Shown here: piece by piece, positions 1 to 62,792 of the stretch
Layout: each line of letters begins with the position of its first letter
Position numbering within the stretch: position 1 is the first letter of the stretch
Source: an uncultured candidate division Zixibacteria bacterium
GTDB lineage: Bacteria; Zixibacteria; MSB-5A5; GN15; FEB-12
NCBI GenBank assembly: GCA_963806185.1
Contig: CAWDXE010000001.1
Location: 800,001 to 864,000, forward strand
Direction: 5' to 3'
Length of the DNA stretch: 64,000 nt
Notes under the pieces: generated by a model
Told to the model about the DNA's origin: nothing
Databases searched by the model: none
Seen by the model: only the letters and a program-made list of their open reading frames with translations
Translations under genes and position numbers: made by a program

Positions 1-330
1 ACCTCGTCATCCTGAATCATCCTCTCCCCCCTCGTCATCCTGAACCTTTTCTTAAAGGTTCAGGACCTCAGTGTCCACCGCTCTCTCGATCACGCCATTA
101 CAAGGCTCGCTTCTTAGCGGGCCGTGGCAATCTCGAACCTCCCGTATTTCAATGATTGATCATCTACGCACAACAATTGCCGTGCCGGAATCACCGGGCT
201 GAGCGGAAACGAAGCCTGAATATTCCCTCTGACGTTCGCCCTGCTCTTCTCTTCCCCCTCTCCCTTCAGGGAGAAGGTTGGGGTGAGGGCCCGTAGGGCA
301 GCTGTTTCGTCGCACTTCGACTTCGCTCTG
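1..330 (+). repeat. Mosaic palindromic repeat cluster 1 (GTCATCCTGAA, GTCATTGCGAGG-like, CCCTCTCCC and GCACTTCGACTTCGCTC elements)
   Basis: Hairpins at 33-69, 94-134 and 254-289 match elements repeated in other intergenic gaps of the window. Confidence 0.85.
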
Positions 331-435
331 GATAAACGTCGTCGAACCCCGGTCGTCCCCGTTACCAATAAGAATGGCGCCCTCAGAATTCACTCTGAAC
401 GGCGCCGTGATCATTTTCCTATGTTCGCCGGCTTC

Positions 436-828
436 TCAGTCTTCCCCCACCGCCTCTGCGTAATCCAGGTATTCACCCGCCTGCTTATTCCGGTTCTCCA
501 GCATCTCCAGATACAAGCGCCGCAACGGTGCAAAGTGGCACGTTTGACCGCAGGCCGTCTCGTCACTCAGGATGAAGCAATGTCCCGGACAGCGGGGCGA
601 GTTGTGAAGCGTCTGATCGGGTACGGCTTCTGAGACCAACTGCAGCAGCTCTTCGGCAGGTATTTTGAAAGCCGAGAGGCATGACGGATCTGTATGAAAG
701 AAATAGAAATGCAGACGCTGACTATTTTCGTCAAATTGCAGCCCCAGCGGCTCGAGACTGGTATCGGTCAGCAGTTCACGAACCGTGAACCAGACCTGGC
801 AAGCGGTGCATTGGGAAAATGGGCGCAT
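436..828 (-). CDS. Hypothetical Cys/His-rich protein, possible metal binder
   Basis: 130-aa ORF with CTAC, HxxxxC, CPGHC and CGQTC motifs; GAGG RBS upstream. Confidence 0.6.
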   Translation of the reverse strand: MRPFSQCTACQVWFTVRELLTDTSLEPLGLQFDENSQRLHFYFFHTDPSCLSAFKIPAEELLQLVSEAVPDQTLHNSPRCPGHCFILSDETACGQTCHFAPLRRLYLEMLENRNKQAGEYLDYAEAVGED

Positions 829-969
829 CTGGTATCCTCAGCTTCGTCGTCAAATGATCATGCTCTTTCTATCGGCGATCATCATGACGATTCCAAGAAT
901 TATCTCGCGTCGTCCTTCAGTCTGTTCAGCCCTTTATCAGACGGATGAAACGGTATTGACGCCGACCAA

Positions 970-999
970 TAAAAAACCCGCCGATGTTTCGGCGGGTTG
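970..999 (-). terminator. Intrinsic terminator after rplS
   Basis: AACCCGCCGA/TCGGCGGGTT stem with a T-run on the minus strand. Confidence 0.75.
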
Positions 1000-1022
1000 A
1001 TGGCAAAATGCCAAAAAAATGA

Positions 1023-1411
1023 CTATTCCTTTTCCTTCTTCGCGGCTTCCGCCCCCGATCCGTCGACCAGCAGCTGCTCGCGAATACGAGCCGATTTGCC
1101 CGGTCAGTGAACGCAGGTAGTAGAGCTTGCCGCGACGGACCTGGCCGGCGCGAATCCGTTCGATCTTCGCGATATTCGGCGACCAGAGCGGGAAGACGCG
1201 TTCCACGCCGATCCCGGACGAAATCTTGCGTACCGTAAACGTCGCGCCGTTACCGCCGCCCCGTTTGCCGATCACCGTACCCTGGAACACCTGGATGCGT
1301 TCTTTGTCACCCTCTTTGATTCGGACGTGCACGCTGAATGGTATCCCCCGGGTTAAATTCCGGGTAATCGTCGCGCACGACCAATTTATCGATCTGGGCT
1401 ATCTGTTTCAC
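1023..1411 (-). CDS. rplS: 50S ribosomal protein L19 (frameshifts in assembly)
   Basis: [44 protein letters not shown] start at 1411, TAG at 1023; follows trmD. Confidence 0.95.
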
Positions 1412-1414
1412 GAC

Positions 1415-2203: not shown

Positions 2204-2207
2204 GACC

Positions 2208-2754: not shown

Positions 2755-2986
2755 CTACTCCAGAATCTCGAGTACTGCTCGTTTTCCCTGGCGTGCCGAC
2801 ATGGCCGCCAGCAAGCGTGCGAATTGCTTTCGCGGTCTGCCCGTTCTTCCCGATCACTTTTCCCAGGTCTCCCTGACCGACTCGCAGTTCATACACTGTC
2901 GTGCGAACACCGATCACTTCCTCTACCGAGATTTGATCCGGATGATCCACCAGAGGCCTGACGATGTATTCGATGAACTCTTTCAT
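2755..2986 (-). CDS. khpA: KH-domain RNA-binding protein
   Basis: MKEFIEYIVRPLVDHPD...DLGKVIGKNGQTAKAIRTL; canonical rpsP-khpA-rimM order; 3' frameshift. Confidence 0.92.
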
Positions 2987-3471: not shown

Positions 3472-3487
3472 TGAATCCTCTCCTTAC

Positions 3488-13955: not shown

Positions 13956-13956
13956 G

Positions 13957-26483: not shown

Positions 26484-27090
26484 TGACCGGCGTACGTCTC
26501 GTGCGCCGGCCATCTTATATTCCCCACATCATCACCAGGATAGTCATGCTGAAGCCGCTTCTTAGCGCGCTTCAGCATCTCGATGTGCACCAAATCGTCA
26601 TACAGGTCATCGCGAGGCTCGCTTCGAGCCGTGGCGATCCTTCAGCTCTCTTTGTAGGTCGAAACCCTTGTGGTTTCGACCTGGGACAGAGCAATTCCCA
26701 AAGTCGACTCGACTCGCACTGAGCCTTCCCTTCATCGCACTGAACCCTTCAGGGAGAGGGGGCAGGGGTGAGGGCCAGTGGAGAGCGTGACTTTGTTGTG
26801 TCGGGCACAGAGGAGGGTAGGTCAAAACCCCTGTGGTTTTGACAGTGAGGATCAGAAATGTCATTCAATGGCTGGCGTACGTCTCGTGCGCCAGCCGCAT
26901 TTTGTGCTTTCTGTCCCCAAATCTGACTGTGCAGTGACTTGAAGTAGGGCAGCATCGATGCCCGTCGCAGACGGGCGGATGCTGCCGAGGTGGTCCCTGT
27001 ATGCCGGACGGCAGCACCCGCTCGAAGACTCGCATCGGTGCTGCCCTACATGCCGGCTGTCGTAGGTCAGGGGCCTTGCGCCCCTGACGA
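26484..27090 (+). repeat. Mosaic palindromic repeat cluster 3 (between convergent porin and aqpZ)
   Basis: About ten hairpin elements of at least six families, including the REP doublet at 26944-27049. Confidence 0.9.
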
Positions 27091-27985: not shown

Positions 27986-28175
27986 ATGCGTGGCGTATGT
28001 CCCGTGCGCCAGTGCCCCCTCGTCATCCTGAATCATTCCCCCCTTCATCATCCTGAATCATTCCCATGATTCAGGATCTCGTTGTCCACCGTCCTCTCGA
28101 TCCTGTCATTGCGCCGCTCGCTTCCCGCCCCCAAGTCATTGCGAGGCTCGCTTCTTAGCGAGCCGTGGCAATCTC
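27986..28175 (+). repeat. Mosaic palindromic repeat cluster 4
   Basis: GCGTGGCGTA element, stuttered GTCATCCTGAA, TGTCCACCG linker, stuttered GTCATTGCGAGG. Confidence 0.85.
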
Positions 28176-28792: not shown

Positions 28793-29298
28793 GTAGGTCA
28801 GGATCCCCGCTTCTTAGCGGGTGATCCTGACGTTCTGTTCTGGGCTGAGCGAGGTCGAAGTGCGACGATCGCCCACAAACCCCTCGTCACAGTCATTGCG
28901 AGGCGCGTTTCGCGCCGTGGCAATCTTTCAGTTCTCTTCCCCCTCTCCCACTGGGAGAGAGCTGGGGTGAGGGCCGATAGGGACCTCGACATCACACGAC
29001 TCTCACAAAGACAAAGACGTCGCACTGAGCGAAGTCGAAGTGCGACGATCACCCACAAACCCCTCGTTACGGTCATTGCGAGGCGCGCTTCGCGCCGTGG
29101 CAATCTTTCAGTTCTCTTCTCTTCCCCCTCTCCCTCTGAGAGAGGGCTGGGGTGAGGGCTGCTTGGGACCTCGACATCACACGGCTCTCACAAAGACAAA
29201 AACGTCGCACTGAGCGAAGTCGAAGTGCGATTGTGCGGGCCCCCCGTGCATGTTCCGTCAAGTCCTGCGACGCTTCTTAGCGGCGTGTGACCGGACGG
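28793..29298 (+). repeat. Mosaic palindromic repeat cluster 5 with ~180-bp tandem duplication
   Basis: CTGAGCGA(G/A)GTCGAAGTGCG recurs at 28845, 29025 and 29210; intervening sequence nearly identical. Confidence 0.9.
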
Positions 29299-35780: not shown

Positions 35781-36092
35781 GTACCCCACCGGAACGGTGG
35801 GTTCATGATTCAATGGTTTCCCCTTCACCCGCATGCTGGCGCTCTCCCCGTACCCCACCGGAACGGTGGGTTCATGATTCAATGGTTTCCCCTTCACCCG
35901 CATGCTGGCGCTCTCCCTGTAGCCCACCGGAACGGTGGGTTCATGATTCAATGGTTTCCCCTTCACCCGCATGCTGGCGCTCTCCCCGTACCCCACCGGA
36001 ACGGTGGGTTCATGATTCAATGGTTTCCCCTTCACCCGCATGCTGGCGCTCTCCCCGTACCCCACCGGAACGGTGGGTTCAGGTTTCAATGG
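35781..36092 (+). repeat. 69-bp tandem REP array, five REP copies, downstream of RAYT
   Basis: GTA(C/G)-CCCACCG-GAA-CGGTGGG at 35781, 35850, 35919, 35988, 36057. Confidence 0.95.
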
Positions 36093-36615
36093 CTTCAGTA
36101 TCCATTTCAAGTTTACATCCACGTATGCCAGCGTACCAGCGACAGCTCGACCACTCCCACTGCTCAGCTGACTTGATCAACCCCGCCCTAACTGGATTAT
36201 TGTGACAATACTCGATAGCTTTCCGTACCTCTTCTACGTTCCGGCACGATTTGTCAAAACACCGCTTGTACCATAAACTGAACCTATGCTCGTGTCCTTG
36301 CTTGGTAGTAAGCCGATCAATCAGGTAACCGCCATGTCTGCCAATCTGAACGTGAATGCGCCGCGTGCTTTCCCTCTTGATGACTCCGATGACTCCCCCC
36401 AATTCAGTCTCTGAGGGAGGCACGATTACCAAGTGTACATGATCAGGCATGATCACCCAGCCCAACAGTGAGAATTGTGCGCATGCTCGTGCCTCGGCGA
36501 TGCTATCGACGACTGCCTGGCGCGAAGAATCGTTGGAAAGCAATGGAATCTGATGACGTGTGCCAAAAGTGACGAATCGAGCCCGTCCATCGTGATCATA
36601 GTGAGTCAGAAGCAT
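36079..36615 (-). mobile_element. REP-associated tyrosine transposase (RAYT / TnpA-REP, Y1 HUH)
   Basis: FVTF.T, VIMPDHVH (HUH), EYCHNNPVRAGL (catalytic Tyr), W.WSS; flanked by REP hairpins. Confidence 0.92.
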
Positions 36616-36670
36616 AGAAGCGTCACATCACGTAGGAGTGAATCGGCGGCAATAACCTCGCCCCCGTACT

Positions 36671-37036
36671 GTACCCCACCGGAACGGTGGGTTCATGATT
36701 CAATGGTTTCCCCTTCACCCGCATGCTGGCGCTCTCCTCGTACCCCACCGGAACGGTGGGTTCATGATTCAATGGTTCCCCCTTCACCCGCATGCTGGCG
36801 CTCCCCCCGTACCCCACCGGAACGGTGGGTTCATGATTCAATGGTTCCCCCTTCACCCGCATGCTGGCGCTCCCCCCGTACCCCACCGGAACGGTGGGTT
36901 CATGATTCAATGCTTTCCCCTTTACGCCAGGCTGCTCTCATCATCCGCCAACGTCTCTGGCCACACAAGACATCCAAATTCACCCACACGCCGGTTATAG
37001 CCAATGAACTTCAAGCCCACCGTTCCGGTGGGCTAC
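36671..37036 (+). repeat. 69-bp tandem REP array, four copies plus one inverted REP, upstream of RAYT
   Basis: Copies at 36671, 36740, 36809, 36878; inverted GTAG copy at 37016-37036. Confidence 0.95.
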
Positions 37037-41349: not shown

Positions 41350-42005
41350 CGTGGCGTCAGGCCGGGTGGCGTTGGCAACGAACAGCGTAAGCTGTCCGGA
41401 TGCCTCCCGACCTGATTGCCCACGTAGGTACTATTTTTCAAAGGAGTCTTCATGTCCCCCGTTCTTTCCTCCCCCGTCGCACCGTCCGCCCCCCGCGCCT
41501 CCCTGTCTGCTGCGCACGCTCTATTCTGTGGCTGGCGTACGTCTCGTGCGCCAGCCCTTCCCCCCCGCGTGGCGCACGGGACGTACGCCACGCACTGAGC
41601 TGAAAGATCGCCACGGCGCTCGGAAGCGCCTCGCGATGACGCGCAGGTAAATTCGGTGGCCATTGAGATCCTGAACCTTTAAGAAAAGGTTCAGGACGAC
41701 GAACGGGAGAAAGTGATTCAGGATGACGAGGGGTGAATCGTAGGTCGGGTTCCGAAGTTTGCCGCAGGCAAACGTAGAAACCCGACACGATGTGCTGCCC
41801 CTCTTGCTCCCTCTCCCTCCGGGAGTGGGCTGGGGTGACGGCCGGTGGGGCCACGAGTAGAACAAGTAGGGGTCCGCCAAACGTAAGATCGAGAAGAGAA
41901 GATGGCAAACCCCTTGATAAATGGAAAATGGGGTTTGCTCTACGGGATCATCGCAGCTGCCCCTCTTGCTCTCTCTCCCTCCGGGAGTGGGTCGAGGTGA
42001 GGGCA
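41350..42005. repeat. Mosaic palindromic repeat cluster 6
   Basis: GGCGTACG doublet 41530-41593, minus-strand composite 41604-41729, GTAGGTC element at 41740, two CTCTCCCTCCGGGAG elements. Confidence 0.85.
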
Positions 42006-42144: not shown

Positions 42145-44602
<2,458 letters not shown>

Positions 44603-48761: not shown

Positions 48762-49160
48762 GTCATGGCGAGGCCCCCCCACAAACGTCATCGCGAGGCT
48801 CTCCCCCACAAACGTCATCGCGAGGCTCGCTTCGAGCCGTGGCGATCTTTCAGTTCTCTTCTTTTGTAGGTCAGGATCCCCGCTTCCGAGCGGGTGATCC
48901 TGACGCTCTGTTCAGCAAGGACGGCATCCCCACGCATACACACCGCTCGTCGCGCAGTGTCGTCCTGAGCGCCCCCCACCGTCGTCCTGAGCGCTCCCCC
49001 ACCGTCGTCCTGAGCGCCCCCCCACCGTCGTCCTGAGCGCTCCCCCACCGTCGTCCTGAGCGCAGTCGAAGGACGAGATAGTCAGCGTTAATGCGTGGCG
49101 TACGCCCCGTGCGCCAAGCAGGGTGAAAGAAGGCTGGCGCACGAGACGCACGCCAGCCAT
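48762..49160 (+). repeat. Mosaic palindromic repeat cluster 7
   Basis: Stuttered GTCATCGCGAGG, GTAGGTCAGGATC REP at 48866, stuttered GTCGTCCTGAGCG at 48959-49075, GGCGTACG doublet. Confidence 0.9.
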
Positions 49161-49284: not shown

Positions 49285-51546
49285 CTAAATAAACAGCGGC
49301 GCCAGCACCAGCGTAATCGTCGATAACAGTTTCACCAGCACGTGAAGCGACGGACCAGCCGTGTCCTTAAACGGATCACCTACCGTGTCGCCCACCACCG
49401 CCGCACCGTGAATCGGGTTCTTCACCTTGCTGCCGTCGGCCAAAGTCAGATACTTCCCGCCATGCGCGCCGGTTTCGATATACTTCTTGGCGTTGTCCCA
49501 CGCGCCACCCGCGTTGTTCAGGAAGAGCGCCATGATGATACCGCCGATCGTCCCCACCATCAGAAACGCCGCCACCGACTGCGCGCCAATCAGCGGCTCA
49601 GCATCGGTGCGGAAGAGCAACTTGAAGACGACACCGACCAGTATCGGCGCGCAGACCACCAACAGACCCGGCAGTACCATCTCGCGCAGGGCCGACTTGG
49701 TGACGATATCCACGCACGCGCCGTATTCCGGCTTGAAGTCAGGCGTGAACACGATCATGTCGTTCTTGCGTGCCAGCTTAGAATACTGACGACGTACCTC
49801 TTCGATAATCGCCTTGGCCGCTTTACCCACCGCACGAATACAGAGCGACGAGAACAGGAAAACCAGCATGCAGCCGAGCATCGCGCCGACAAACACGACC
49901 GGATTCGACAGATCGACACGGAACGGTTCGCCACCGTTCGCAATAGATACCGGCGTAGTGCAGGACCTCGTCCATGTACGCCTGGAACAACAGGAAGGCC
50001 GCCAGACCGGCCGAGCCGACCGCGTACCCTTTGGTCAACGCCTTGGTCGTGTTGCCGACTGAATCCAGACGGTCCGTGCGTTCGCGAATATGTTCCGGCT
50101 GACTCGACATCTCGACAATACCACCGGCGTTGTCGGTGATCGGGCCAAACGTATCCATCGCCAGAATGTACGCGGCAGTGGCCAGCATACCCATCGTGGC
50201 GACCGCCGTACCAAACAGGCCGCCGCTCACCGATGCCATCCGGGAACGCCGCCTGGCCGAGGAAATACGACGCCAACAGCGCGCCGCCGGTGACCATCAC
50301 CGGGAGAGCCGTGCATTCAAAGCCGACCGCCACACCGGCAATGATGTTGGTCGCCGGACCGGTCGTCGAGGCGTCGGCAATCGACTCTCACCGGGCGATA
50401 TCGATATTCAGTGTAATACTGCGTGATGAACACGTAGAGAATCGACGTCACCACGCCGACGATACCGCAGACGAAGAAATGCCACCAGGCGTTTTCGGCG
50501 GCCGGTGTATACAGCAGCCAGCGGGTGGCCGCACCAAAACCGATCATGGCGAGAATCGCGGTGAAGAAATAACCGCGGTTGAGCGCCTGCATCGGATCTT
50601 CTTTTTCATTTTTCAGCTTCACCGACACGATGCCGATGATCGACGCGATGATACCAAACGCACGGGCGATCAACGGGAACATCATCACACCGATAATACC
50701 GGCGTCGAAATTGATATCCGCTCGCGCCGCCGCGGCCGCGAGCGTGGCGCCCAGAATCATGGCGCCGATATTTTCAGCGGCCGTCGATTCGAACAGGTCG
50801 GCCCCACGACCGGCGCAGTCACCGACGTTGTCACCGACCAGATCGGCGATCACCGCGGGGTTGCGCGGATCGTCTTCCGGAATACCGGCTTCGACTTTAC
50901 CCACCAGGTCCGCGCCGACGTCGGCCGCCTTGGTGTAAATACCGCCGCCCACCTGGGCGAACAGGGCGACAAACGACGCGCCAAAACCATAGCCGACAAT
51001 CAGGAGAGGAATCTGTGTGTCCGGGACCGCGGTTGTGTAGCGCACCAGCGCATACAGACCGGCGACACCCAGCAGCGACATGGCAACCACCAGACAGGCC
51101 CGACACCGCGCCGCCGCGAAGCGCGACGCGCAGGGCGTCGTTCAGATTATCCAGCGCCGCCGCAGCCGTGCGGATATTGGAGCGGATCGACACCCACATC
51201 CCGACATACCCGGCGATCACGGAACAGATGGCGCCGAGAACGAAAGATATCGTCACCCAGAACGCCAACTGCATCGGTGAGGATACCGGGTCAAATTCGC
51301 GATGACCGCGCAGGACGCCGTAGCCGAGAAAGAGCGCCACCGCGACCAGAAGCGCCAGCATGAGCGATGGTTCGGTTCTGGCGGCGAAGGAACGACTCGG
51401 CTCCCTCTTTGATGGCGTTGGAGATTTTCTGCATCGCCTCGGTGCCAGTGCCCTCGAGCAAGAACCCATCGGGCGAGCCACCAGGCGGCGAGCAGGCCAA
51501 AGAGGCTGATCCCAATGATGAGCCCTAGAAGCAGTCCTTCAGACAT
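49285..51546 (-). CDS. hppA: Membrane H+-translocating pyrophosphatase (frameshifts in assembly)
   Basis: [58 protein letters not shown]. Confidence 0.95.
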
Positions 51547-51808: not shown

Positions 51809-54295
51809 ATGGAATTGCGGCAAAGCGTGAGGATCGTGATACTGTGCGCGGTGCTTTGCGCGGCGTTCGGCGTTGTGGCGTTTGCTCAGAATGACCCCAC
51901 TCATCGCCCGCGGTTCGATTACTTTCCTCATAACAACGGCAATATGCAGATGTGGATATCCAATCTGGGAACGTATGGTGACGGTGGGGAGGACGAACAA
52001 TTCTACGTTGATCCGCTGTCAGGCCAGTCACTTCCTTTCACGTTTGTCTATCCCAGAAACTCCCATGTCGTTTTCGGCGTCTTTGATCTTTGGATTGGCG
52101 GGAAGGTCAGTGGCGAGCCATCCGTTTCACAGGGTTACTGGGGCGAGCTGGTTTCTGATTATTCGCTTGCCAATCCGATGAGTATATCCACCATCGATCC
52201 GACAAAGGCCTGGTATTCGCCGCAGGCCCGATCAGAACTGGATATCAACTGTGAATACACCGATACTTTCCCGCGCCGCCAGCCGTTTCCGGTGGGCGAT
52301 CCAAATGATCCACTGATTCACCCTCCCCTGGGTGTGCGCGTGCACCAACGATCGATGTCCTGGTCGGCGGAGACTGTCAACGATTTCATTCTCATAGACC
52401 TGGTGTTCACGAATATCGGACGCGATGGGATCAAGGACGTGTATGTAGGCATCAGCGGAACTTCGACGTTCGCGGCATATATCGAATCGTATGCCGATTT
52501 CGATACTCTGCCCCATCAAGATGATCTGGCCGGATACCTGCGGAGCATGATTCTTCCTGGTGACTGCAACGAGCCGACCGAGCTCGGCGTCGCGTATATC
52601 ATGGATAACGACGGCGACCCCGAGGCTGGAGTCTTCGATGCCAAGTCGGCCCTTCCGGCTGTGGGGACGATCGTCCTGCGCTGCCCCGGGGATACACCGA
52701 CTGTCAGCTTCAATTGGTGGGCCTGGTTGCAGAACTACGGCCAACCAGTTCGCGAAGATTGGGGCCCGATGCACGAACGTCGCGAAGGTGAACCGCGTCC
52801 ACCAGTCGGCATGGGCACCGAGTACCCTTACGGCGACATTCAGCGCTATTATATCATGAGCCGCCCCGAGATTGACTATGATCAGGTGTATGCGGCCATT
52901 CTTCAGCAGGGTTGGATGCTGCCGGCCCGCCATGCCGATGAAGTCGCAGCCGGCAGTGGGGTGGCAATGCTTCACTCCGCCGGGCCGTTCGATCTCTTTC
53001 CCGGTCAGAGTGCTGAGTTTACCTTTGCTTTTGTCGGCGGCGAAAATGTCCACACCGACCCGACCAATTTCGAGCGCAACTTCATTCCCAGCAATCCAAG
53101 CGCCTATCTGGCCAATCTTGATTTTTCCGATCTCGCGCTCAACGCCCGCTGGGCACAGTGGGTGTATGATAATCCCGGTTTTGATACCGACGGCGACGGT
53201 TACCGCGGCGAGTACAGAATCTGTGACGGCGACACGCTTTGGTACCAGGGCGACGGTATCCCCGATTTCCGCGCCGACGTGCCGCCACCCGCTCCGCTGT
53301 TGCACGTTTACCCGTCGCAGGGGAAGCTGGTTTATCGCTGGAACGGCTACAACAGCGAGACATTTGTTGATCCGTTCACGCGCATCAAGGATTTCGAGGG
53401 GTACCGCGTGTACATGGGCCTCGACCAGCGCGAGTCGAGCCTGTCGATGATCAGCCAGTTTGATTATCCCAATTTCAACCGCTTTGTGATGCGCCAGAAA
53501 CTGAACGGAACGTGGGATTGGCAGAACAAAGATTTGCCCCTCTCGCTCGACTCACTGCGAAAATTCTTCAATGATCCGGAATTTGAGCCATCACTGTATC
53601 CACGGACCGACCCGCTCAAATTCCTGGACACCTTCTACTATTTCCAGACACAATCGTATAACGCGGCGCTGGCGCCGGACCAGGTGCACAAGGTCTACCC
53701 GGATGCGATAAAGCCGCCCGACGACACGCTTCAATGGACTGCCGACATGCTGACCGAAGAACATGGCAAACCGCTGCCCAGGTATTACGAGTATGAGTAT
53801 GTGCTGGACAAATTGCTGCCGACTATCGAGTATTATGCCAGTGTGACGGCGTTTGATTTCGGGTTTGCGTTTGGAGGGATACCTTCGAGGGAAGCAAGCA
53901 AGTATGCCAACATCACCAATGCGTATGCGATTCCTTCTGCGCAAACCGTAGCCAGTGAACACAGAGACGTCTACATCTGGCCCAATCCCTACCGGTATGA
54001 CGGCAACTATCTGGAGCAGGGATTCGAGAACCACGATCAGAGTCTCTGGTATGACCGGGCGCGACGGATTCACTTTGGCAATCTCCCCGCCAAGTGCACG
54101 ATCTCAATTCTCTCCCTCGACGGCGATCTGATCAAGGAGATTCATCACAGTTTTGCGCCGGACGATCCTGAGGCGCAACACGATTCGTTTGACCTGATCA
54201 GCCGAGCGGGTTTGCTGGTGGTCTCGGGTATTTATTACTGGGTGGTAGAGGGTGACGGCCGGACGCAGATGGGGAAGCTGGTGATAATTGAGTAG
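51809..54295 (+). CDS. Large secreted hypothetical protein (Fn3-like segment, PNPY C-terminal sorting-like domain)
   Basis: Signal peptide; DNDGD, GPFDL.PG, DFEGYRVY, YYASVTAFD, WPNPY...GIYYWVVE. Confidence 0.75.
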   Translation: MELRQSVRIVILCAVLCAAFGVVAFAQNDPTHRPRFDYFPHNNGNMQMWISNLGTYGDGGEDEQFYVDPLSGQSLPFTFVYPRNSHVVFGVFDLWIGGKVSGEPSVSQGYWGELVSDYSLANPMSISTIDPTKAWYSPQARSELDINCEYTDTFPRRQPFPVGDPNDPLIHPPLGVRVHQRSMSWSAETVNDFILIDLVFTNIGRDGIKDVYVGISGTSTFAAYIESYADFDTLPHQDDLAGYLRSMILPGDCNEPTELGVAYIMDNDGDPEAGVFDAKSALPAVGTIVLRCPGDTPTVSFNWWAWLQNYGQPVREDWGPMHERREGEPRPPVGMGTEYPYGDIQRYYIMSRPEIDYDQVYAAILQQGWMLPARHADEVAAGSGVAMLHSAGPFDLFPGQSAEFTFAFVGGENVHTDPTNFERNFIPSNPSAYLANLDFSDLALNARWAQWVYDNPGFDTDGDGYRGEYRICDGDTLWYQGDGIPDFRADVPPPAPLLHVYPSQGKLVYRWNGYNSETFVDPFTRIKDFEGYRVYMGLDQRESSLSMISQFDYPNFNRFVMRQKLNGTWDWQNKDLPLSLDSLRKFFNDPEFEPSLYPRTDPLKFLDTFYYFQTQSYNAALAPDQVHKVYPDAIKPPDDTLQWTADMLTEEHGKPLPRYYEYEYVLDKLLPTIEYYASVTAFDFGFAFGGIPSREASKYANITNAYAIPSAQTVASEHRDVYIWPNPYRYDGNYLEQGFENHDQSLWYDRARRIHFGNLPAKCTISILSLDGDLIKEIHHSFAPDDPEAQHDSFDLISRAGLLVVSGIYYWVVEGDGRTQMGKLVIIE

Positions 54296-54670
54296 GGCAG
54301 CACCGATACGAGTCTTCGAGCGGGTGCTGCCGTCTTGGTGAGGTCAAGGAATCTTATCGGCAGCATCCGTCCGCTAAGAAGCGGACATCGATGCTGCCCT
54401 ACGACCCGCCGTCAGGCTCACAGCGAGCCTGAGCTACTGTGTTGCCCCTCGTCATCCTGAATCATTCCCCTAAATCGTCATCCTGAATCATTATTATGAT
54501 TCAGGATCTCACTGTCCACCGTGTCTATCTGTGCCGCCGCAAAGCGTCGCACTGAGCGCTAGTCGAAGTGCGATTGAAGGGAATGGGGAGTCATCGCGAG
54601 GCGCGCTTCGAGCCGAGGCAGTTTTTCAGTTCTCTCTTGTGGGTCGAAACCGCAGGGCTATCGACCTGCA
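54292..54670. repeat. Mosaic palindromic repeat cluster 8
   Basis: REP doublet 54292-54402, minus REP 54410-54437, stuttered GTCATCCTGAA, CGTCGCACTGAGC and GTCATCGCGAGG elements. Confidence 0.9.
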
Positions 54671-55980: not shown

Positions 55981-57966
55981 TTACTCGTGCGCGGTCATCG
56001 TTGCGGGGCGCAGGGCATGGGTGCGGTATTCGCGGTAGGCCGTCTGATACCAGGCGATGGCGTCGCGCACCAGGCCCGAATCGGAATCCACCGGCAAGCG
56101 GGTGAATTTGCCGGTATCCGGGTCGCGCGCCCACAATTCTATATCCTGCTTCAGGCCGAGAACGGCGAGTCGATTGTCGCGCAGCAATGCCACGTCGCGA
56201 TTGTGATTCATCAGCGCCCAGGTTTGACCCTCGGCGACATCGAGCAGATTCCGCCCGAAGAACTGGCTTTCATAGCTCACGTTCAACAATCCGAGAATCG
56301 TCGGAGCGACGTCCAGCTGCGATCCGAGAATGTCGACCGGGCGCGCCTCGGGAATTAGTGCCGGGCAGTAGAGCAGTACCGGAATTTCATACGAATCCAT
56401 CGGAATCTGTTGCGCACCGTAGACGCGCGCGCCGTGATCGCCCAAGAACACAAACAGGGTGCTGTCGAAAAATTTGTGTGACCGGGCGTCGCGAATGAAT
56501 TTGCCGATGGCATAATCGGCGTATGACACGGCATTCTCGCGGCGCTGCTGCTTCGGATCGGCCGCGATGCGCCCCTCCGGATAGGTATAGGGCGTGTGAT
56601 TTGAGACCGTCAGCAGGGTCGCGAAGAAGGGCTTCCCGCCTGCGCTCATCGAATCACACACGGTCAGGGCGTTGTTGAACAAGTCCTCGTCGCACACTCC
56701 CCAAATGGTTTTGAACTGCACGTTGCGCATGTCCGTCTGGTCGATCACCCGGTCGAAATCGTTGTTGGCGGCAAAATCACCCAGATTATCAAAGTACGAC
56801 CGACCGCCATAGATGAACGTCGTCTGATACCCCTGCGATTTAAGCACCGACGGCAATGTAAACACATGATGACCGCCGGGGCGACGAACAATCGAGTTGC
56901 CCGGCAACGGCGGGAAACCGGCCAGCGTTGCCTCGATGCCGCGTACGGTTCGATTGCCCGTGGCATAAATGTGGCGCAGGAGCAGGCCGTGCATTGCCAG
57001 GCTGTCAAACTCAGGTGTAAGATGTCCATTCTCGGGGTGAAGCAGGCCGACAAACTTTGAGCCAAAGCTCTCTTCCAACACCAGCACGACATTGAATCGT
57101 CGCGCCTCACCCGCTCCCCGTATCATTCGCCCCTGCGGAACAGACTCGCGAGTGGTGTCAATCACATCGGATTCTTTGCGCACCATATCGCGAACGCGCC
57201 TGTCGGCCTCGGCATCGTCGATACGGGCATAATACGTGTCGTAATCCAGCTCATTGGTACTCAATGCATAGAAGAAACTATAGTAGCCGTTCCCGGCGAT
57301 TTCGTTGAGCACGCGGTTATCAGACACCTGCGTGAAGCGATACGACAGGCCAAAGTAGCCAAGAGCCGCAATCGCAACGTACAGAAGCAGGTATTTGGGC
57401 CACGCACCTCTGGGCTGCGGCAGGACCCGACTGACGAGAATGGTTCGACGCAAATAGTATACGACAAGCAGGGCGATGATCGCCGATGCAATGAGCACCT
57501 GGAAAACCGGATAGGTATCCCAGAGATTGACAAAGACTTCGTGGGGAAAGAGGAGGTAATCGACGGCGACATAGTTGAACCGGGAATCGAATTCGCCGAA
57601 GAAGAAGTATTCCACTACACCCAGATACAACAAGCCAAAGGTATAGATGAAAAAGCCAACCAGCACCAGTCCCCGCACTGTCACCGACTTGAGCCAACGT
57701 TCCGGCAAGATTGTCAGAAAGACAAAGTAGAGTGCGCACAAACAGGCGGCGACAAAGAGATCGAAAAGCAGGCCGACGAGCAGGGCCGGGATGATGGACA
57801 GAAAATCGCCGTGCAGTTCACCTGCCCCGGCAAGAATCAAACTGATTCGAGTAAGTACGCAGACTGCGAGGTAGATACCAACGGCCACGCCCCAACCGGA
57901 ATAGCGGCTGTGAAAGAGAGCGGTGAGGGCACTGCGCGTGCGCGAACTGATTTGAGACAGAACCAT
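55981..57966 (-). CDS. LTA synthase family membrane sulfatase / phosphoglycerol transferase
   Basis: TM N-terminus; LEES, GNRTVRG, TVSNH.PY, GDHG, SQLDVAPT. Confidence 0.88.
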   Translation of the reverse strand: MVLSQISSRTRSALTALFHSRYSGWGVAVGIYLAVCVLTRISLILAGAGELHGDFLSIIPALLVGLLFDLFVAACLCALYFVFLTILPERWLKSVTVRGLVLVGFFIYTFGLLYLGVVEYFFFGEFDSRFNYVAVDYLLFPHEVFVNLWDTYPVFQVLIASAIIALLVVYYLRRTILVSRVLPQPRGAWPKYLLLYVAIAALGYFGLSYRFTQVSDNRVLNEIAGNGYYSFFYALSTNELDYDTYYARIDDAEADRRVRDMVRKESDVIDTTRESVPQGRMIRGAGEARRFNVVLVLEESFGSKFVGLLHPENGHLTPEFDSLAMHGLLLRHIYATGNRTVRGIEATLAGFPPLPGNSIVRRPGGHHVFTLPSVLKSQGYQTTFIYGGRSYFDNLGDFAANNDFDRVIDQTDMRNVQFKTIWGVCDEDLFNNALTVCDSMSAGGKPFFATLLTVSNHTPYTYPEGRIAADPKQQRRENAVSYADYAIGKFIRDARSHKFFDSTLFVFLGDHGARVYGAQQIPMDSYEIPVLLYCPALIPEARPVDILGSQLDVAPTILGLLNVSYESQFFGRNLLDVAEGQTWALMNHNRDVALLRDNRLAVLGLKQDIELWARDPDTGKFTRLPVDSDSGLVRDAIAWYQTAYREYRTHALRPATMTAHE

Positions 57967-58082
57967 CCGGTCGCCCGTAAACCTCCGGTTAATGATCGAT
58001 TGGTAAGCTCTAATTTATACATTCTGACTGAGGAACGCACCGAGTTTTCTATCCGCTCGATATGTTGCAATAATGCAACGGG

Positions 58083-58580
58083 TTACGAGTCTATGCGCGC
58101 GAGTCGCCGGAGTGCTTCATCGGTCACACGGAAAACGGTCCAGTCAGTCTGCGGAACGGCGCCGAGATTCTGATAAAATTCTATAGCCGGTTCATTCCAA
58201 TCCAGCACCGCCCACTCAAATCGTCCGCAATCACGCTCCATTGCGATTTGTGCGAGGCGAACCAGCATCTTTCGACCAAACCCTCGCCCCCGTATTTCGG
58301 GCGCGACATACAGGTCTTCCAGGTATAGCCCCGGTTTACCAAGAAACGTCGAAAAATTATGAAAGAACAACGCAAAGGCCACCGGCTCGCCGTCGTACTC
58401 CCCGATTATGGCCTCCGCCACTTTGCGCCCCCCGAACAGATTGTGCCGCAGCGTGTCCTCTGTGGCAACGACCGCGTGCGCCAACTTCTCGTACTCGGCC
58501 AGTTCCTTGATCAATCGAAGCAACAGCGCGACATCGCTGACAGTTGCTTCGCGGATAACCAACTGCTCGGATGCAGACAT
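58083..58580 (-). CDS. GNAT acetyltransferase (diamine acetyltransferase-like)
   Basis: ELAEYEK, FSTF.G, LEDLYV, RGRGFG, VLDWN.PA..FY. Confidence 0.9.
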   Translation of the reverse strand: MSASEQLVIREATVSDVALLLRLIKELAEYEKLAHAVVATEDTLRHNLFGGRKVAEAIIGEYDGEPVAFALFFHNFSTFLGKPGLYLEDLYVAPEIRGRGFGRKMLVRLAQIAMERDCGRFEWAVLDWNEPAIEFYQNLGAVPQTDWTVFRVTDEALRRLARIDS

Positions 58581-58590
58581 AGCCAATCTC

Positions 58591-59199
58591 CTACCAGATT
58601 TCTTCGTTCAGGCTCCGCCACAGGTACCACGAGGCAACCGAGCGATGCGGCTGCCACCGCTGGGCGAAATCGTCGTATTCGGCGACGGTCTCGAATGCTT
58701 CATACCATTTGTCGATCGCTTTGCGCAGCCCCAGATCAAGCGGCGCGAAAACGTCGGGGCGCGCCAGCACGAAGATCAGGTACATCTGCGCCGACCAGTT
58801 GCCGACACCGATCACCTGCGTCAGTTCGGCGATAACGTCATGATCGGGGATTTTGGCCAAACGGTGGAAATTCACCTGCCCCTGTTCCACCTTGGTCGCG
58901 AGATCGCGAACATATCTGATTTTTCCGCTGGAGAGGCCGGCCGAACGAAGCGAAACGTCATCAATACTCAACAGAGATTCCGGGGTCAGCTTGCGACCGT
59001 CATTGAGCGCGCGTACGCGGCGATTTATGGCATCGGCTGAAGCTCCGGACAGCTGCTGCCCGATAATGATCTCGATCATGCGTCCGAATCCGCCCGGCCG
59101 TCGACAAATCGGACATGGCCCGACGCGCCGGATGATTTTTCGCATGACCGGATCGACCGCGCAAAGATGTCGTTCGGCGTGATGGTTGGCGCTTGGCAT
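58591..59199 (-). CDS. alkA: DNA-3-methyladenine glycosylase II family (HhH-GPD)
   Basis: GQQLS, GLS..K..Y, GVG.WSA.MYL, R.DV....D, WQP.RS.A. Confidence 0.85.
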   Translation of the reverse strand: MPSANHHAERHLCAVDPVMRKIIRRVGPCPICRRPGGFGRMIEIIIGQQLSGASADAINRRVRALNDGRKLTPESLLSIDDVSLRSAGLSSGKIRYVRDLATKVEQGQVNFHRLAKIPDHDVIAELTQVIGVGNWSAQMYLIFVLARPDVFAPLDLGLRKAIDKWYEAFETVAEYDDFAQRWQPHRSVASWYLWRSLNEEIW

Positions 59200-59337
59200 G
59201 CGGAATAATACCGCTTCCCGAACATGGAGCGCAACAGTCTCATCGTCACTTTCGTATTCAATTTTGGTTGCTGACCGACCAGCCGTTGGTGATATTGTCC
59301 GGACAGGTTGCCGCCATTAACTGATTTCGGAGTCAAT

Positions 59338-62295
59338 GTGAATCTGCTATCGAACGATGACACCCGTCCCTTTCCGGTGTTGAGCGCCGGAGTCATGATC
59401 GGCCACTATCAGATCATCGAACGGATAGGAGCAGGTGGCATGGGCGAGGTGTTTCTGGCCGAGGACACCCAGCTTAAACGACGAGTGGCTCTGAAGTTTC
59501 TCCCTCCCCAATTCCTGGCCGAGGAAGACTACAAGACCCGCTTTCGTCGCGAGGCCCAGGCCGCGGCCGCTCTGAATCATCCCAATATCGTGACTATCCA
59601 CGAGGTAGCCGAACACATGGGACGGCCGTATATCGCCATGGAGCACGTCACCGGTCAGTCATTGCGGCAGAAGATTCAGACGGCGCCGCTGGCCATTGAG
59701 GACATTCTCGATCTGGGCATACAGATCGGCGAAGGACTGGCCAAGGCGCATCAACACGGCATCATCCATCGCGATATCAAGTCTATGAACATTCTGGTCG
59801 ACGCTGACGGTCGGGCGCGCATTCTCGATTTCGGACTGGCCGCGGTACAGGGAAGCGAACAGCTCACGCGCGCCGGCTCCACGCTGGGCACGGTGGCCTA
59901 TATGTCGCCGGAGCAGGTACTGGGCAAGCCGACCGATCACCGCTCCGACATTTTTTCGTTTGGCGTCGTACTCTTCGAGATGATCACCGGCCGCCTGCCG
60001 TTCACGCGCGATAACGACATCGCCACAGCCCAGGCGATTGCCAATGATCCGGCGCCACCGCTGCAAAATCTGCGCGCCTCCGCCACACCCGGTCTTCAGG
60101 CGATTATCGACAAGGCCCTGGATAAGGACAATAAGACCCGATATCAGACCGCCAACGATATGGTGGCTGATCTCAGGCGCGAAAAGCGGCTGCTGGATTC
60201 CGGCGCCCGCACAGCGTCGTATTCCGGTTCGGCGCTAGCGACCGCAAAAAAGAAACCGGCGTGGCGGGCAATTGCCCTCTCCGGAACGGCCCTCGTGATC
60301 GTCGTCGCCGCACTTCTCGTCCTGAAACCGTGGCAGTTCGAACTGAAATCGAGCAACGATGCCGTCGCGGGTGAAAACCGGCTCGCCATCATGTATTTCG
60401 ACAATCTGGCCGACCCCGACGATTCCCAGCGCATGGGACAGATCGTCACCGATCTGCTCATCACCGATTTGTCGGAGGCGCAGAATCTCAATGTCGTCTC
60501 CAGTCAGCGCCTCTATGATCTCCTCAAGCAGTTGGGCAAGGAGGGGGTGCGGTCGGTCGACAAGGAGACCGCGTCGCGCGTGGCGGAAAAGGCGCGCGCC
60601 AAGTGGATGCTGACCGGCAAGATTCTTCAGAGCACGCCAAAAGTCGTGCTGACCGCACAGGTGATCGACGTACAGAGCGGCGAAGTGAAGGCATCGAAGC
60701 GGATGGCGAGTAATGACGGCGAAGATATCTTCTCGCTGGTCGATAGACTGACGCTTGAATTGAGCAACGATCTTTCCGCGCCGGTATCCTCCGGACCGTC
60801 CAGTCACGCCCTCGCCGGCGCGACCACTCACTCGCAGGACGCCTATCGGTTGTTCCTCGAGGGCGTCGAGTTGATGATGGAGTTCAAAATGGATCAGGCC
60901 CGCGAGCGGTTTGTCGAGGCGCTCAAATATGATTCGACCATGGCGATGGCCTATTACCTGCTGTCGAACGGCAGTTCCAACGAGCAGGCGCAGGAGTATC
61001 TGGCCAAGGCGGTCAAGTTCGCCGATCGCGCCAGCCAGAAAGAGCGGTGGTATATCGCCAGCCGTCAGGCGGCGTTTAACGGTCGCTCCGATAGCGCCGT
61101 GTACTTTCTCAACCAGATCATCCAGCGCTACCCCGATGACAAAGAGGCGCACTACTTTCTGGCCACCGGGTACAGCGATCAAGGGCGTTTCCCCGAGGCA
61201 ATCGCGGAACTGGAAAAGGTGCTGGCGCTCGATCCCACCTACAAGGTAGCCGTGAATCAGCTCGGGTACATGTATATGCGCACGCAGGAATTTGCCAAAG
61301 CCGAAGACATCTTCAATCGTTACATCGCCATTGTACCGGACGAACCGAACCCGTACGACAGTCGCGCCGATCTCTACGCCTGGACCGGCCGGTTCACTGA
61401 GGCTATAGCCTCGTACAGTCGCACGCTGAAGGTTGATTCGTCCTTCTTCCAGAGCCGCATGAAGCTCTTCTCGCTCTATGTCTGGGTCGGCAACTACGAC
61501 AGCGCGGCGACGCTCATCCCTCGACTCCTGCAGGGAAGGAATGCCGAGGAGGTGGCGTTGGGTCGATCCGGCTCGGCCGCGATCAAGCTGGCACAAGGAC
61601 AATTTCGCGGGGCCTATGACGATATCTCGTCGGAATTCGCTGCCGTGTTCAGGAACGGCAAGCCGGCCGAACAGTTGGTCGGGTATCAGCGACTTTTCGG
61701 CATCGCCTACTACGCGGGCTGGACGGACACCATGAAAGCAGTGCTGCTGCGCATGGAACCGATACTGGCCGCTATCCCCGAGAACATCTTCCGCGGCCGC
61801 GATACCTGGGCGAGGTACTACGCACTGGTGGGTGATAAACAGAAGGCCGACAGCCTACTGACTTCTCTTGAAACCGATCTGCTGGCGAAATTCAAATCGC
61901 TGCCGGACGACTATCTGACAACCCGCGCAGTCCTGGACACTTGGCTGGGACGGCCGGAACGATCGGTCGCCCCGCTCGAACGGATGATGACGAAAATTCC
62001 GCTCCCCTTCGGGTCAGCCGTTCGCCTGTGTCAAGCGTACGTAGCGCTCAAGCAGTACGACAAGGCGATTGTTCTGCTTGAGAAGGCGATGCAGGTCTGC
62101 AATTCCGATTGGCTCTTCTCGGCCACTCTGCACGCTGAAGGGTACTACATGCTGGGGCAAGCGTACGAGGCGACGCAGCAGAATCAGAAGGCGGCCGAGG
62201 CGTACACCAGGTTTCTTGATATCTACAAGAACGCCGATCCGGGCCAGCCGAAGGTGGCTGATGCGCGGGCGCGCCTGGCGAAGTTGAAGGCGTAG
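59338..62295 (+). CDS. Hanks-type Ser/Thr kinase with TM, TolB-like and TPR domains
   Basis: GAGGMG.V, VALK, HRDIK, DFG, YMSPEQ, SDIFS; TPR repeats; start uncertain. Confidence 0.93.
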   Translation: MNLLSNDDTRPFPVLSAGVMIGHYQIIERIGAGGMGEVFLAEDTQLKRRVALKFLPPQFLAEEDYKTRFRREAQAAAALNHPNIVTIHEVAEHMGRPYIAMEHVTGQSLRQKIQTAPLAIEDILDLGIQIGEGLAKAHQHGIIHRDIKSMNILVDADGRARILDFGLAAVQGSEQLTRAGSTLGTVAYMSPEQVLGKPTDHRSDIFSFGVVLFEMITGRLPFTRDNDIATAQAIANDPAPPLQNLRASATPGLQAIIDKALDKDNKTRYQTANDMVADLRREKRLLDSGARTASYSGSALATAKKKPAWRAIALSGTALVIVVAALLVLKPWQFELKSSNDAVAGENRLAIMYFDNLADPDDSQRMGQIVTDLLITDLSEAQNLNVVSSQRLYDLLKQLGKEGVRSVDKETASRVAEKARAKWMLTGKILQSTPKVVLTAQVIDVQSGEVKASKRMASNDGEDIFSLVDRLTLELSNDLSAPVSSGPSSHALAGATTHSQDAYRLFLEGVELMMEFKMDQARERFVEALKYDSTMAMAYYLLSNGSSNEQAQEYLAKAVKFADRASQKERWYIASRQAAFNGRSDSAVYFLNQIIQRYPDDKEAHYFLATGYSDQGRFPEAIAELEKVLALDPTYKVAVNQLGYMYMRTQEFAKAEDIFNRYIAIVPDEPNPYDSRADLYAWTGRFTEAIASYSRTLKVDSSFFQSRMKLFSLYVWVGNYDSAATLIPRLLQGRNAEEVALGRSGSAAIKLAQGQFRGAYDDISSEFAAVFRNGKPAEQLVGYQRLFGIAYYAGWTDTMKAVLLRMEPILAAIPENIFRGRDTWARYYALVGDKQKADSLLTSLETDLLAKFKSLPDDYLTTRAVLDTWLGRPERSVAPLERMMTKIPLPFGSAVRLCQAYVALKQYDKAIVLLEKAMQVCNSDWLFSATLHAEGYYMLGQAYEATQQNQKAAEAYTRFLDIYKNADPGQPKVADARARLAKLKA

Positions 62296-62313
62296 GAGTC
62301 GGGCCACTTCGTA

Positions 62314-62792
62314 GTAGGTCAGGGGCCTCGCGCCCCTGACAGAAGGCTGCACTGCGGCATCAGAATAGAACGTCAGGATCACCCGCTAAGAAGCGGGGAT
62401 CCTGACCTACAAGACACTTACTTCTCCCCAAGGTCATCCCCGCCCTCCCCAATGTCATCCCCGCCCTCCCCAATGTCATCCCCGCCCTCCCCAATGTCAT
62501 CCCCGCCTTGAGCGGGGATCTATCCTCGGCACCAATGCGCCAAGTGACCATCTCTGCACAGCGGGTGTGATCCATCAGCAAAAGAGAGCTGAGAGATCGC
62601 CACGGCGCGAAGCGCGCCTCGCGATGACATCATAGGCGGATTTCATCTGTATTCGCGTATCACGGCGCTCACTCTTCCTCCCTCTCCCTCTGGGAGAGGG
62701 TTGGAGTGAGGGCCAAGTACGCTGAAGCGGCCGGCGAACGAGAGGTACGCCGGCCATAACCGACCGTCAGGCTCGCAGGGAGCCTGACCTAC
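62314..62792. repeat. Mosaic palindromic repeat cluster 9 (between convergent kinase and lysS)
   Basis: GTAGGTCAGG REPs, 21-bp stutter 62433-62521, GTCATCGCGAGG, CCCTCTCCC and GGCGTAC elements. Confidence 0.9.

What the first reader, a model, noticed from the sequence alone, without database searches (positions are those of the whole stretch)
39..62410. One TTCTTA apical loop is shared by unrelated palindromic repeat families
Seen: TTCTTA (TAAGAA on + for minus-strand copies) sits at the hairpin apex nine times: 49, 111, 26559, 28152, 28811, 29274, 41680, 54375 and 62387. The carriers have different tags and stems: GTCATCCTGAA, GTCATTGCGAGG, GTCATGCTGAA, GTAGGTCAGGATC, GTAGGGCAGCATC and the 29255 element. 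The closing stem varies (CCTT/AAGG versus CGC/GCG) while the loop does not. Sister copies carry other apices (TTCCGA at 48884 and near 41620, TTCG, TCGCAGA). In eight of nine cases TTCTTA reads on the same strand as the element's 5' tag; the 29255 element has no clear tag. Inference: the apex is an exchangeable module or a recognition signal for one factor acting across GTAG- and GTCA-tagged families. I do not know of a described system with this property; this is my best candidate for something new.
Basis: partly seen in the sequence, partly recalled or inferred. Interest (0 to 1): 0.8.

Follow-up and report, generated by a model that had tools for sequence, protein, structure and literature searches.

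The report
Hairpin cap hopping between repeat families
Six families of small palindromic DNA repeats in this bacterium end in the same tiny hairpin tip (a TCTT loop), which was likely copied into the loops of otherwise separate repeats and then spread as passive cargo, making it a new twist on known REP repeats rather than a proven new signal.

Summary
All nine apices are present, and TTCTTA is the top hairpin apex in the genome: 46 of 674 sites have a stem of at least 5 bp, against 0.14% for all hexamers. The conserved unit is a TC(Y)N tetraloop, mostly TCTT, closed by T-A here and by C-G, G-C or T·G elsewhere.

The carriers are REP repeats of the two known superfamilies, GTAG (RAYT-linked) and CGTC (Ssn-like GIY-YIG-linked), in a Zixiibacteriota genome. 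One GTAG family is a 27-nt element across the phylum; only this genome of 285 has it with a 12-nt TTCYNA insert.

A single recognising factor is unsupported. There is no transcription bias, and relatives rich in TTCTTA keep uncapped GTAG repeats. Published SsnA and E. coli RAYT data show the distal loop is not read. Rhizobial genomes also share caps across both superfamilies, and this scan noted hairpins nested in REP loops in other genomes. Why T-C stays fixed is unexplained.

Side finding: the chromosome has a sawtooth GC skew with many upward jumps, and the repeats point at them.

The parts
34..68 (+). CGTC-type REP, family F1 (GTCATCCTGA), cap CCTT-T[TCTT]A-AAGG; TTCTTA at 49-54
94..132 (+). 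degenerate CGTC-type REP, family F2, TTCTTA at 111-116
   Evidence: sequence 20-140 printed
26543..26579 (+). CGTC-type REP, family F3 (GTCATGCTGAAG), TTCTTA at 26559
28135..28173 (+). CGTC-type REP, family F2 (GTCATTGCGAG), cap CTCGC-T[TCTT]A-GCGAG
28793..28832 (+). GTAG REP, family F4; phylum-wide 27-nt frame plus a 12-nt cap insert
29255..29298 (+). family F6 element (GTCAGGTCCTGCG frame, degenerate copy; no GTAG tag), TTCTTA at 29274
41666..41700 (-). CGTC-type REP, family F1, TTCTTA cap
54359..54402 (-). GTAG REP, family F5 (GTAGGGCAGC), TTCTTA cap
62371..62410 (-). GTAG REP, family F4, TTCTTA cap
41606..41640 (-). sister F2 copy with TCCG tetraloop (TTCCGA)
48866..48905 (+). sister F4 copy with TCCG tetraloop (TTCCGA at 48884)
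27010..27049 (-). F5 copy with TCTT tetraloop closed by G-C above opposed G/A bases (likely tandem sheared pairs); same loop, other closing pair
   Evidence: sheared-pair reading is recalled knowledge
54292..54331 (+). F5 copy with G-TCTT-C cap, inverted partner of 54359-54402
28047..28079 (+). F1 copy with TCCC tetraloop (TTCCCA)
62765..62792 (-). uncapped short GTAG element (F4b), the ancestral-length form of the F4 frame
36079..36615 (-). RAYT (REP-associated tyrosine transposase) gene; flanked by GTACCCCACC arrays (35781-36080, 36671-36901) that do not carry the cap
   Evidence: NF047646, 104.9 bits over cut-off 80

Best explanation
The shared apex is a 12-14-nt hairpin cap with a TC(Y)N tetraloop that sits in the loop of GTAG and CGTC REP repeats, was likely copied from co-resident CGTC repeats into a few GTAG founders, and was then likely amplified as passive cargo by each family's own nuclease. 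Shown: the cap, its fixed orientation on the tagged strand, the insert in F4 that is unique to this genome among 285, and RAYT and small GIY-YIG genes bracketed by capped repeats. From the literature: SsnA does not need the loop, and E. coli RAYT needs the upper stem-loop only as a structure. Inferred: the direction of transfer (CGTC to GTAG); the copying route (template switching or gene conversion through short CGC/GCG or CCGC matches between folded single strands); about 4-6 independent acquisitions; and retention of T-C by selection on how the tagged strand folds, not by a dedicated reader.
For: Short F4 is phylum-wide, the capped form is found only in G000, and a different hairpin was inserted into the same loop in G170. 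F2 also exists as a minimal 26-nt form in G008. Rare loop variants are shared across superfamilies: TCTG in F2, F4 and F5; TCCG in F1, F2 and F4; and one 18-nt cap is identical in one F2 and two F5 copies. The cap on the CGTC F2 frame recurs in records from many phyla (84 stretches; 42 of 84 matches are closed by 3 or more pairs), so CGTC is the plausible donor. In G286 the loop is TCTT in 42 of 46 copies while the closing pair is C-G, T·G (6) or T-A (5) (my count). In G285, 18 of 19 long elements keep TTCTTA with the loop left free in the search, and the stem covaries (6 pairs changed on both sides; score 0.180 against 0.117; 0 of 500 shuffles). Cap-stem mismatches on the tagged strand are A/G 126 against C/T 18. 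Two rhizobial-order genomes share TCTT/CCTT and GNA/GNNA caps between GTAG and CGTC families. The RAYT at C6:16738 is flanked by three F5 copies with TCTT on different stems, and the GIY-YIG at C7:1009901 by two TTCTTA F2 copies. Loop tolerance: PMC11893778 and PMC8266576.
Against: Nearest-neighbour DNA energies give no tagged-strand advantage for T-A-closed caps (lower in 47 of 98), and no paper on special TCTT stability was found. The selective reason for T-C (58 of 58 T-A-closed tetraloops) is therefore not shown. No donor-recipient pair was caught side by side: the F4 copy at C7:1010517 has a CTCGC stem while its F2 neighbours have CTCAC. The 18-nt identity is mostly palindrome and is only suggestive. 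G·T barely exceeds A·C (39 against 28). Short-REP RAYTs do read their loops (PMC8266576), and these RAYTs were not assigned to a group. F1 caps have other inner stems (CCTT/AAGG, TCA/TGA), which would need later compensated drift.
Confidence: 0.55

Rival explanations
1. One host factor (a single-strand hairpin-binding, priming or protective protein) reads the TC(Y)N loop on any stem, so every repeat family in such a host is selected to wear it.
For: T-C is invariant in 58 of 58 T-A-closed loops. The loop stays fixed on drifting stems in G285, G040 and G140. Abundant use is patchy, 3 of 285 phylum genomes. It is never reversed (0 of 315).
Against: 187 of 315 elements in G000 use other caps. GTAG F4/F5 copies are uncapped in G040 and G140. 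GIY-YIG genes are flanked by mixed caps (L007, L181). Rhizobial caps vary at loop position 1 (T, C, A, G). Only 3 stand-alone TTCTTA hairpins with 5 bp or more, against about 1 expected.
Confidence: 0.15
2. The cap is itself a non-autonomous mini-element, inserted into folded loops by a site-specific enzyme, a parasite of REPs.
For: Clean 12-nt insert in F4 and an independent different insert in G170. In G140 a CCGCC-NNN-GGCGG mini-palindrome replaces part of an arm while TTCTTA stays.
Against: Cap ends differ between families (CCTT, TCA, CCGC, CTCGC, CCC), so there are no fixed termini. All 11 F4 copies share one junction, which points to one event. There are almost no free copies. No inter-family half-hybrids at the loop (90 concordant, 0 discordant, 7 one-armed).
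Confidence: 0.13
3. There was no transfer: each family evolved a TCYN cap on its own because few loops (GNA, GNNA, pyrimidine tetraloops) fold well on one strand only.
For: The same small repertoire recurs in distant phyla and in both superfamilies. GNA/GNNA mini-hairpins are known to be extraordinarily stable (PMC13037366, search listing only).
Against: A 12-nt insert matching the co-resident cap appeared only in a genome rich in that cap. Inner stems and rare variants are shared too. The energy model shows no TCTT advantage.
Confidence: 0.12
4. All carriers descend from one capped ancestor and the outer stems diverged afterwards.
For: F1, F2 and F3 share the GTCAT...ATCY frame. Di Nocera et al. 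suggest tagged repeats may be related. Stems covary quickly.
Against: Uncapped F4 and F2 frames are widespread in the phylum and capped F4 is unique to G000. The two superfamilies flank unrelated enzymes.
Confidence: 0.05

Closest known systems
GTAG- and CGTC-tagged REP superfamilies (Di Nocera, De Gregorio and Rocco 2013, PMC3733652)
   Same: Unpaired 5' tag, short stem, several families per genome, intergenic. Complex self-complementary loop variants are described within GTAG-3 and GTAG-14.
   Different: CGTC loops are given there as 4-5 nt; here they are replaced by 12-20-nt hairpins. One cap shared across both superfamilies was not stated in the parts I read. Figures 1-2 with the consensus loops and the supplements were not seen and may bear on this.
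Ssn nucleases with NTS/SRM repeats (Chenal et al. 2025, PMC11893778)
   Same: Small single-domain GIY-YIG genes bracketed by inverted CGTC-tagged hairpins. The loop is dispensable and extendable in vitro, which fits a cargo position.
   Different: The published SRM search pattern does not match F1-F3, even with a widened loop. cd10448 membership could not be tested. The passages read do not treat natural caps; TTCTTA has 0 occurrences in the main text.
REPtrons, RAYT/TnpA-REP (Corneloup et al. 2021, PMC8266576; Quentin et al. 2018, PMC6006769)
   Same: Six RAYT-type genes, all over the NF047646 cut-off, flanked by their own repeats. In long E. coli-type REPs the upper stem-loop has a non-specific structural role.
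   Different: There the loop is either ignored or read by the cognate enzyme only; here one loop spans the substrates of unrelated enzymes.
attC sites of sedentary chromosomal integrons (Loot et al. 2017, PMC5371416)
   Same: Works-like analogue for orientation: the reactive strand is kept on the leading-strand template. Here the tagged strand lies on the locally C-rich strand (228 of 260), which by the usual G-rich-leading convention is the leading-strand template.
   Different: No integrase or cassette is involved, and which strand is leading was inferred, not shown.

Membership tests
GTAG REP / REPtron (F4, F5) | unpaired GTAG directly 5' of the hairpin | tested here: met
GTAG REP / REPtron (F4, F5) | family members flank a RAYT gene | tested here: met
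   F5 flanks the RAYT at C6:16738. The RAYT at C1:1018330 is flanked by the sister F4b frame, not by capped F4.
GTAG REP / REPtron (F4, F5) | strand-specific cleavage by the RAYT | not testable with these tools
   needs an in vitro assay
CGTC REP (F1-F3) | CGTC/TGTC tag, stem starting with AT, short unpaired tail | tested here: met
CGTC REP (F1-F3) | 4-5-nt loop | tested here: not met
   loop replaced by a capped hairpin; a variant of the kind
Ssn / SRM | small stand-alone GIY-YIG gene flanked on both sides by inverted tagged hairpins | tested here: met
   4 of 6 small GIY-YIG genes in G000 (C1:760886, C1:866536, C6:151220, C7:1009901)
Ssn / SRM | published degenerate SRM pattern | tested here: not met
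   matches the GTCATTCCCG and GTCACCCCCG families but not F1-F3
Ssn / SRM | CDD cd10448 assignment and ssDNA cleavage | not testable with these tools
   no CDD library here; no NCBIfam hit for 4 proteins; no PDB hit for 1 protein
RNA loop signal or terminator | fixed orientation relative to transcription | tested here: not met
   15 sense, 16 antisense, 18 convergent, 6 divergent of 55, with my own ORF-based gene calls
Polar chromosome motif (Chi/KOPS-like) | strand polarity outside repeats | tested here: not met
   125 TTCTTA against 139 TAAGAA on the C-rich strand with repeats masked; z about 2.9 the other way, rank 1841 of 2015
Independent mini-element | fixed ends and free-standing copies | tested here: not met
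   variable ends; 3 free copies against about 1 expected
Independent mini-element | empty/filled alleles among close strains | not tested
   no same-genus genome was returned by the relative searches

The most novel reading that the evidence does not exclude
The TC(Y)N cap is a loop signal read by a host single-strand factor, and the oriented REP clusters that carry it mark or help fire several replication-initiation zones. That would explain why this bacterium shows at least nine upward GC-skew jumps, with dnaA at none of them and the repeats pointing at each: a bacterial chromosome with multiple, repeat-associated origins.
Probability: 0.07. Interest if true: 0.92.

Novelty: new variant of a known kind. 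Interest (0 to 1): 0.45.

Why it matters
How REP families arise and diversify is an open question. This genome gives a lineage-specific case of one superfamily likely acquiring the other's hairpin tip, with the uncapped ancestor still present in relatives. It shows that the REP apex behaves as a cargo slot, in line with in vitro loop tolerance of SsnA and E. coli RAYT. It also defines a small, cheap test: whether TCTT is kept for folding asymmetry or for a reader protein. The associated sawtooth skew may matter more than the cap and deserves its own follow-up.

Tried and rejected
(1) RNA-level signal: no transcription bias.

(2) Polar motif: not polarised outside repeats.

(3) Loop as a cut-and-rejoin site between families, prompted by the CT dinucleotide that RAYTs cleave: 0 discordant arm pairs of 90, and TCCG and TCCC variants lack CT.

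(4) A GIY-YIG clade dedicated to the cap: only 3 of 80 genome-scan loci read had a GIY-YIG hit within the 1.5-kb flanks, and the flanking caps are mixed. No tree was built.

(5) Folding-energy advantage: not seen for T-A-closed caps.

(6) Resemblances recalled from memory and not tested by a call: the CS-6 loop of plasmid single-strand origins, the pC194 nick region, primase trinucleotides and methylase sites. All were dropped because the bases after TTCTTA vary.

(7) Uninformative or empty searches: pattern too loose; 0 matches, gap too narrow, replaced; no plasmid match; 121 matches in viral contigs, 9 starting GTCATTGC, about 3 true elements; 13 of 120 matches had a complementary outer stem, several of them true GTAG REPs.

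(8) DnaA-box clusters at the skew jumps: none (0-2 per 20 kb, background 0.6).

(9) The automatic apex caller mis-centred some elements, so I use its T-A-closed subset and the regex counts. Four of the 98 T-TCYN-A matches (family F4b) are incidental, not apices.

Literature searches that found no description of a shared REP cap. They cover open-access full text only.
Full report
Observation. The window is G000:C1:800001-864000 of a 3.65-Mb, 8-contig assembly. A genome of the same order is titled Candidatus Zixiibacteriota. Genome-wide, 46 of 674 TTCTTA sites are closed by a perfect stem of 5 bp or more, against 0.14% of all hexamer sites; it ranks first by count and by fraction. TCTT/AAGA is also the top tetraloop on stems of 6 bp or more (60 of 1,508). 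By my reading, 43 of the 46 are in repeat families.

What the motif is. Folding shows that T1 pairs with A6, so the loop is TCTT. I catalogued 315 elements of 11 frames by their arms, leaving the middle free; four further frames (F7, F11-F13) were left out of these counts. TTCTTA occurs in 55 elements of six families. Sister apices are TTCTGA (10), TTCCCA (8), TTCCTA (8), TTCCGA (5), TTCTCA (5), TTCCAA (5, four of them incidental) and TTCTAA (2). A further 30 elements match TCYN closed by G-C or C-G, and 187 have other caps. None has the reversed motif on the tagged strand. All 58 T-A-closed tetraloops found by the apex caller begin T-C. An alphaproteobacterial genome settles the point: 42 of its 46 copies keep TCTT while the closing pair is C-G, T·G or T-A (my count).

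The carriers. F1, F2 and F3 share the GTCAT...ATCY frame of the CGTC superfamily; F4 and F5 are GTAG-tagged; F6 shares F4's outer stem without the tag. These are the two superfamilies of Di Nocera et al. (PMC3733652; I read the abstract, background, start of results, section 6, first part of the discussion and passages, not the figures or supplements). The genome has six RAYT-type genes and six small GIY-YIG genes, four of them bracketed by inverted CGTC hairpins. That pairing is the published Ssn/NTS system (PMC11893778; abstract, section 8 and passages), to which earlier scan notes pointed me. F1-F3 do not fit the published SRM pattern, and cd10448 could not be tested, so I call these genes Ssn-like. 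One RAYT is flanked by three F5 copies with TCTT on different inner stems, and one GIY-YIG by two TTCTTA-capped F2 copies.

Is the loop read by these enzymes? Not by the characterised relatives. SsnA cuts with the loop removed or extended. For E. coli RAYT, SELEX found no loop preference, and the upper stem-loop is needed only as a structure; RAYTs of short REPs, in contrast, do read loop bases (PMC8266576, abstract and passages). In my data, GIY-YIG genes are flanked by mixed caps.

Distribution. The F2 frame occurs in 114 of 285 phylum genomes with many different apices (150 of 1,086 rows listed). TTCTTA-capped CGTC elements are abundant in 3 of 285 (G000 20, G040 94, G140 22 matches). Every other genome had at most 3 matches, mostly chance, with true low-copy cases in G068, G108-G110 and G022. 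G040 uses the cap on at least four CGTC frames and one other repeat, with new inner stems (16 of the 20 stretches were chosen for known hits). A scan of named genomes found the F2 frame with TTCYTA in 84 stretches from many phyla, half of the matches at a clean apex. In G285, 18 of 19 long elements keep TTCTTA when the loop is left free. An alignment of 19 copies (19 of 20 fetched, chosen by a loop-fixed search, so its loop invariance is by selection) shows stem covariation: 6 pairs changed on both sides, score 0.180 against 0.117, 0 of 500 shuffles; relatedness inflates this control. The loop is therefore under constraint while the stem drifts.

Evidence for capture. The F4/F5-type frame is present in 221 of 285 genomes and is short, essentially 27-28 nt, in all 150 rows listed. 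Searching only for long forms gave 11 TTCYNA-capped copies in G000, one copy in G170 with a different hairpin, six tandem overlaps and one unrelated match. Aligned with short copies from G140 and G054, the G000 form is the short form plus 12 nt in the loop. All 11 share that junction, so this was probably one event followed by amplification. F2 likewise has a minimal form in G008. Rare variants cross the superfamily line, including one identical 18-nt cap in F2 and F5; this is suggestive only, since most of it is palindrome. In G140 another mini-palindrome has replaced part of an arm. Two genomes drawn from a rhizobial order share TCTT, CCTT, GNA and GNNA caps between a GTAG and a CGTC family (3 of 201 genomes had the GTAG family, first rows only). 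Metagenomes show the CGC-TTCTTA-GCG cap on other GTAG families. Sharing caps is thus a general habit of REPs, and this genome is a strong case of it.

Evidence against one recognising factor. G040 and G140 leave all 28 of their F4/F5-frame copies uncapped. Most G000 elements wear other caps. Orientation is neutral to transcription. Non-repeat TTCTTA does not follow the repeats' strand. Free-standing TTCTTA hairpins are near chance. No hybrids join arms of different families at the loop. Rhizobial caps vary at loop position 1.

What remains open. Nearest-neighbour energies give no tagged-strand advantage for T-A-closed caps (47 of 98), although they do for G-C/C-G-closed ones (23 of 30), and A/G mismatches outnumber C/T 126 to 18 on the tagged strand. 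No paper on special TCTT stability was found. The reason T-C is fixed is therefore inferred, not shown, and a reader protein is not excluded.

Orientation and skew. The tagged strand lies on the locally C-rich strand in 228 of 260 elements in skewed regions, whatever the cap, and in 30 of 42 in sampled G040 stretches. F5 copies, which come as inverted pairs, show no such bias yet keep the loop on the tagged strand, so the loop follows the tag. The skew itself is unusual. It has the same sign for genes on both strands (rho 0.93) but is a sawtooth, with nine detected upward jumps and one downward, one of them near the end of this window. dnaA at C1:994 kb is not at a jump. With three more jumps added by eye, 200 of 315 elements lie within 50 kb of a jump (32% of the genome), and 219 of 253 within 100 kb point toward it; there are local exceptions such as C1 190 kb. 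Sampled windows of G040's single contig suggest the same pattern every 250-300 kb, while repeat-poor G102 shows weak, irregular skew. Misassembly can distort skew (PMC7111523, passages) and was not excluded. Keeping a cleavable strand on the leading-strand template has a precedent in attC sites (PMC5371416, abstract and section 12). I offer that as the likely reason for the bias, assuming G-rich means leading.

Verdict. The feature is real and more than chance. It is a new variant of REP modularity. Within-family loop variants are in print, enzyme tolerance of the loop is in print, and this scan noted hairpins nested in REP loops in other genomes (unchecked notes). I found no description of one cap crossing the GTAG/CGTC line (open-access full text only). 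PMC6006769 and PMC4690160 were seen as passages only and PMC13037366 as a search listing. Interest 0.45.

Noticed in passing
G000 whole genome; one jump at about C1:856-864 kb (window about 56,000-64,000): Sawtooth GC skew at 4-fold sites with nine detected abrupt upward jumps and gradual declines, the same for both gene strands. dnaA is not at a jump and there are no DnaA-box clusters. REPs cluster at the jumps and point toward them. A similar pattern is suggested in sampled G040 and is weak in G102. Possible multiple replication origins; misassembly not excluded. Probably more interesting than the finding itself.
   Followed up: partly
G000 skewed regions: CGCTGG is the most polarised hexamer (696 on the C-rich strand against 1,385 on the G-rich strand), resembling a Chi core (recalled). 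Its flip at individual jumps is inconsistent.
   Followed up: partly
G000:C1:760886, C1:866536, C6:151220, C7:1009901; L181, L185-L187, L189, L191, L195, L051, L062, L086, L125: Ssn-like GIY-YIG genes beside or between CGTC hairpins. By eye, the protein subtype tracks the stem type (GTCATTGCGAG versus GTCATTCCCGC), beyond the published SRM pattern.
   Followed up: partly
L010 (G000:C5:189740), L179, L184, L188: A second small GIY-YIG type sits after a tRNA-like sequence and is followed by a partial copy of it, in three cases with a mini-palindrome in the copy.
   Followed up: no
window 35781-36901: RAYT gene (36079-36615) between tandem arrays of a GTACCCCACC hairpin with 69-nt spacing, five copies on one side and four on the other; the tag reads GTAC/GTAG.
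   Followed up: no
window 26868-26898, 41528-41555, 49133-49160: The most abundant repeat of the genome (GTGGCTGGCG...CGCCAGC, 47 matches) flanks the RAYT at C5:58623 and never carries the cap.
   Followed up: no
window 28022-28079, 48787-48847, 54451-54509, 41666-41727: Many elements are preceded by a partial copy of their own 5' arm and a pyrimidine-rich spacer, suggesting repeated re-initiation during copying.
   Followed up: no
G140:C13:31528, C30:4231, C35:80372, C57:7890: A CCGC(C/A)-NNN-GGCGG mini-palindrome replaces part of one arm of an F2 element while TTCTTA remains.
   Followed up: partly
L130, L131 (G040:C1:235642-262041): A further repeat (GGTGCCCCAACCC frame) with no GTCA or GTAG tag at its stem also carries the TTCTTA cap.
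   Followed up: no
window 42145-43242 and 49285-49896: The listed ORFs match only the C-terminal parts of ClpB-type and pyrophosphatase models, so these genes may be frameshifted in the assembly.
   Followed up: no
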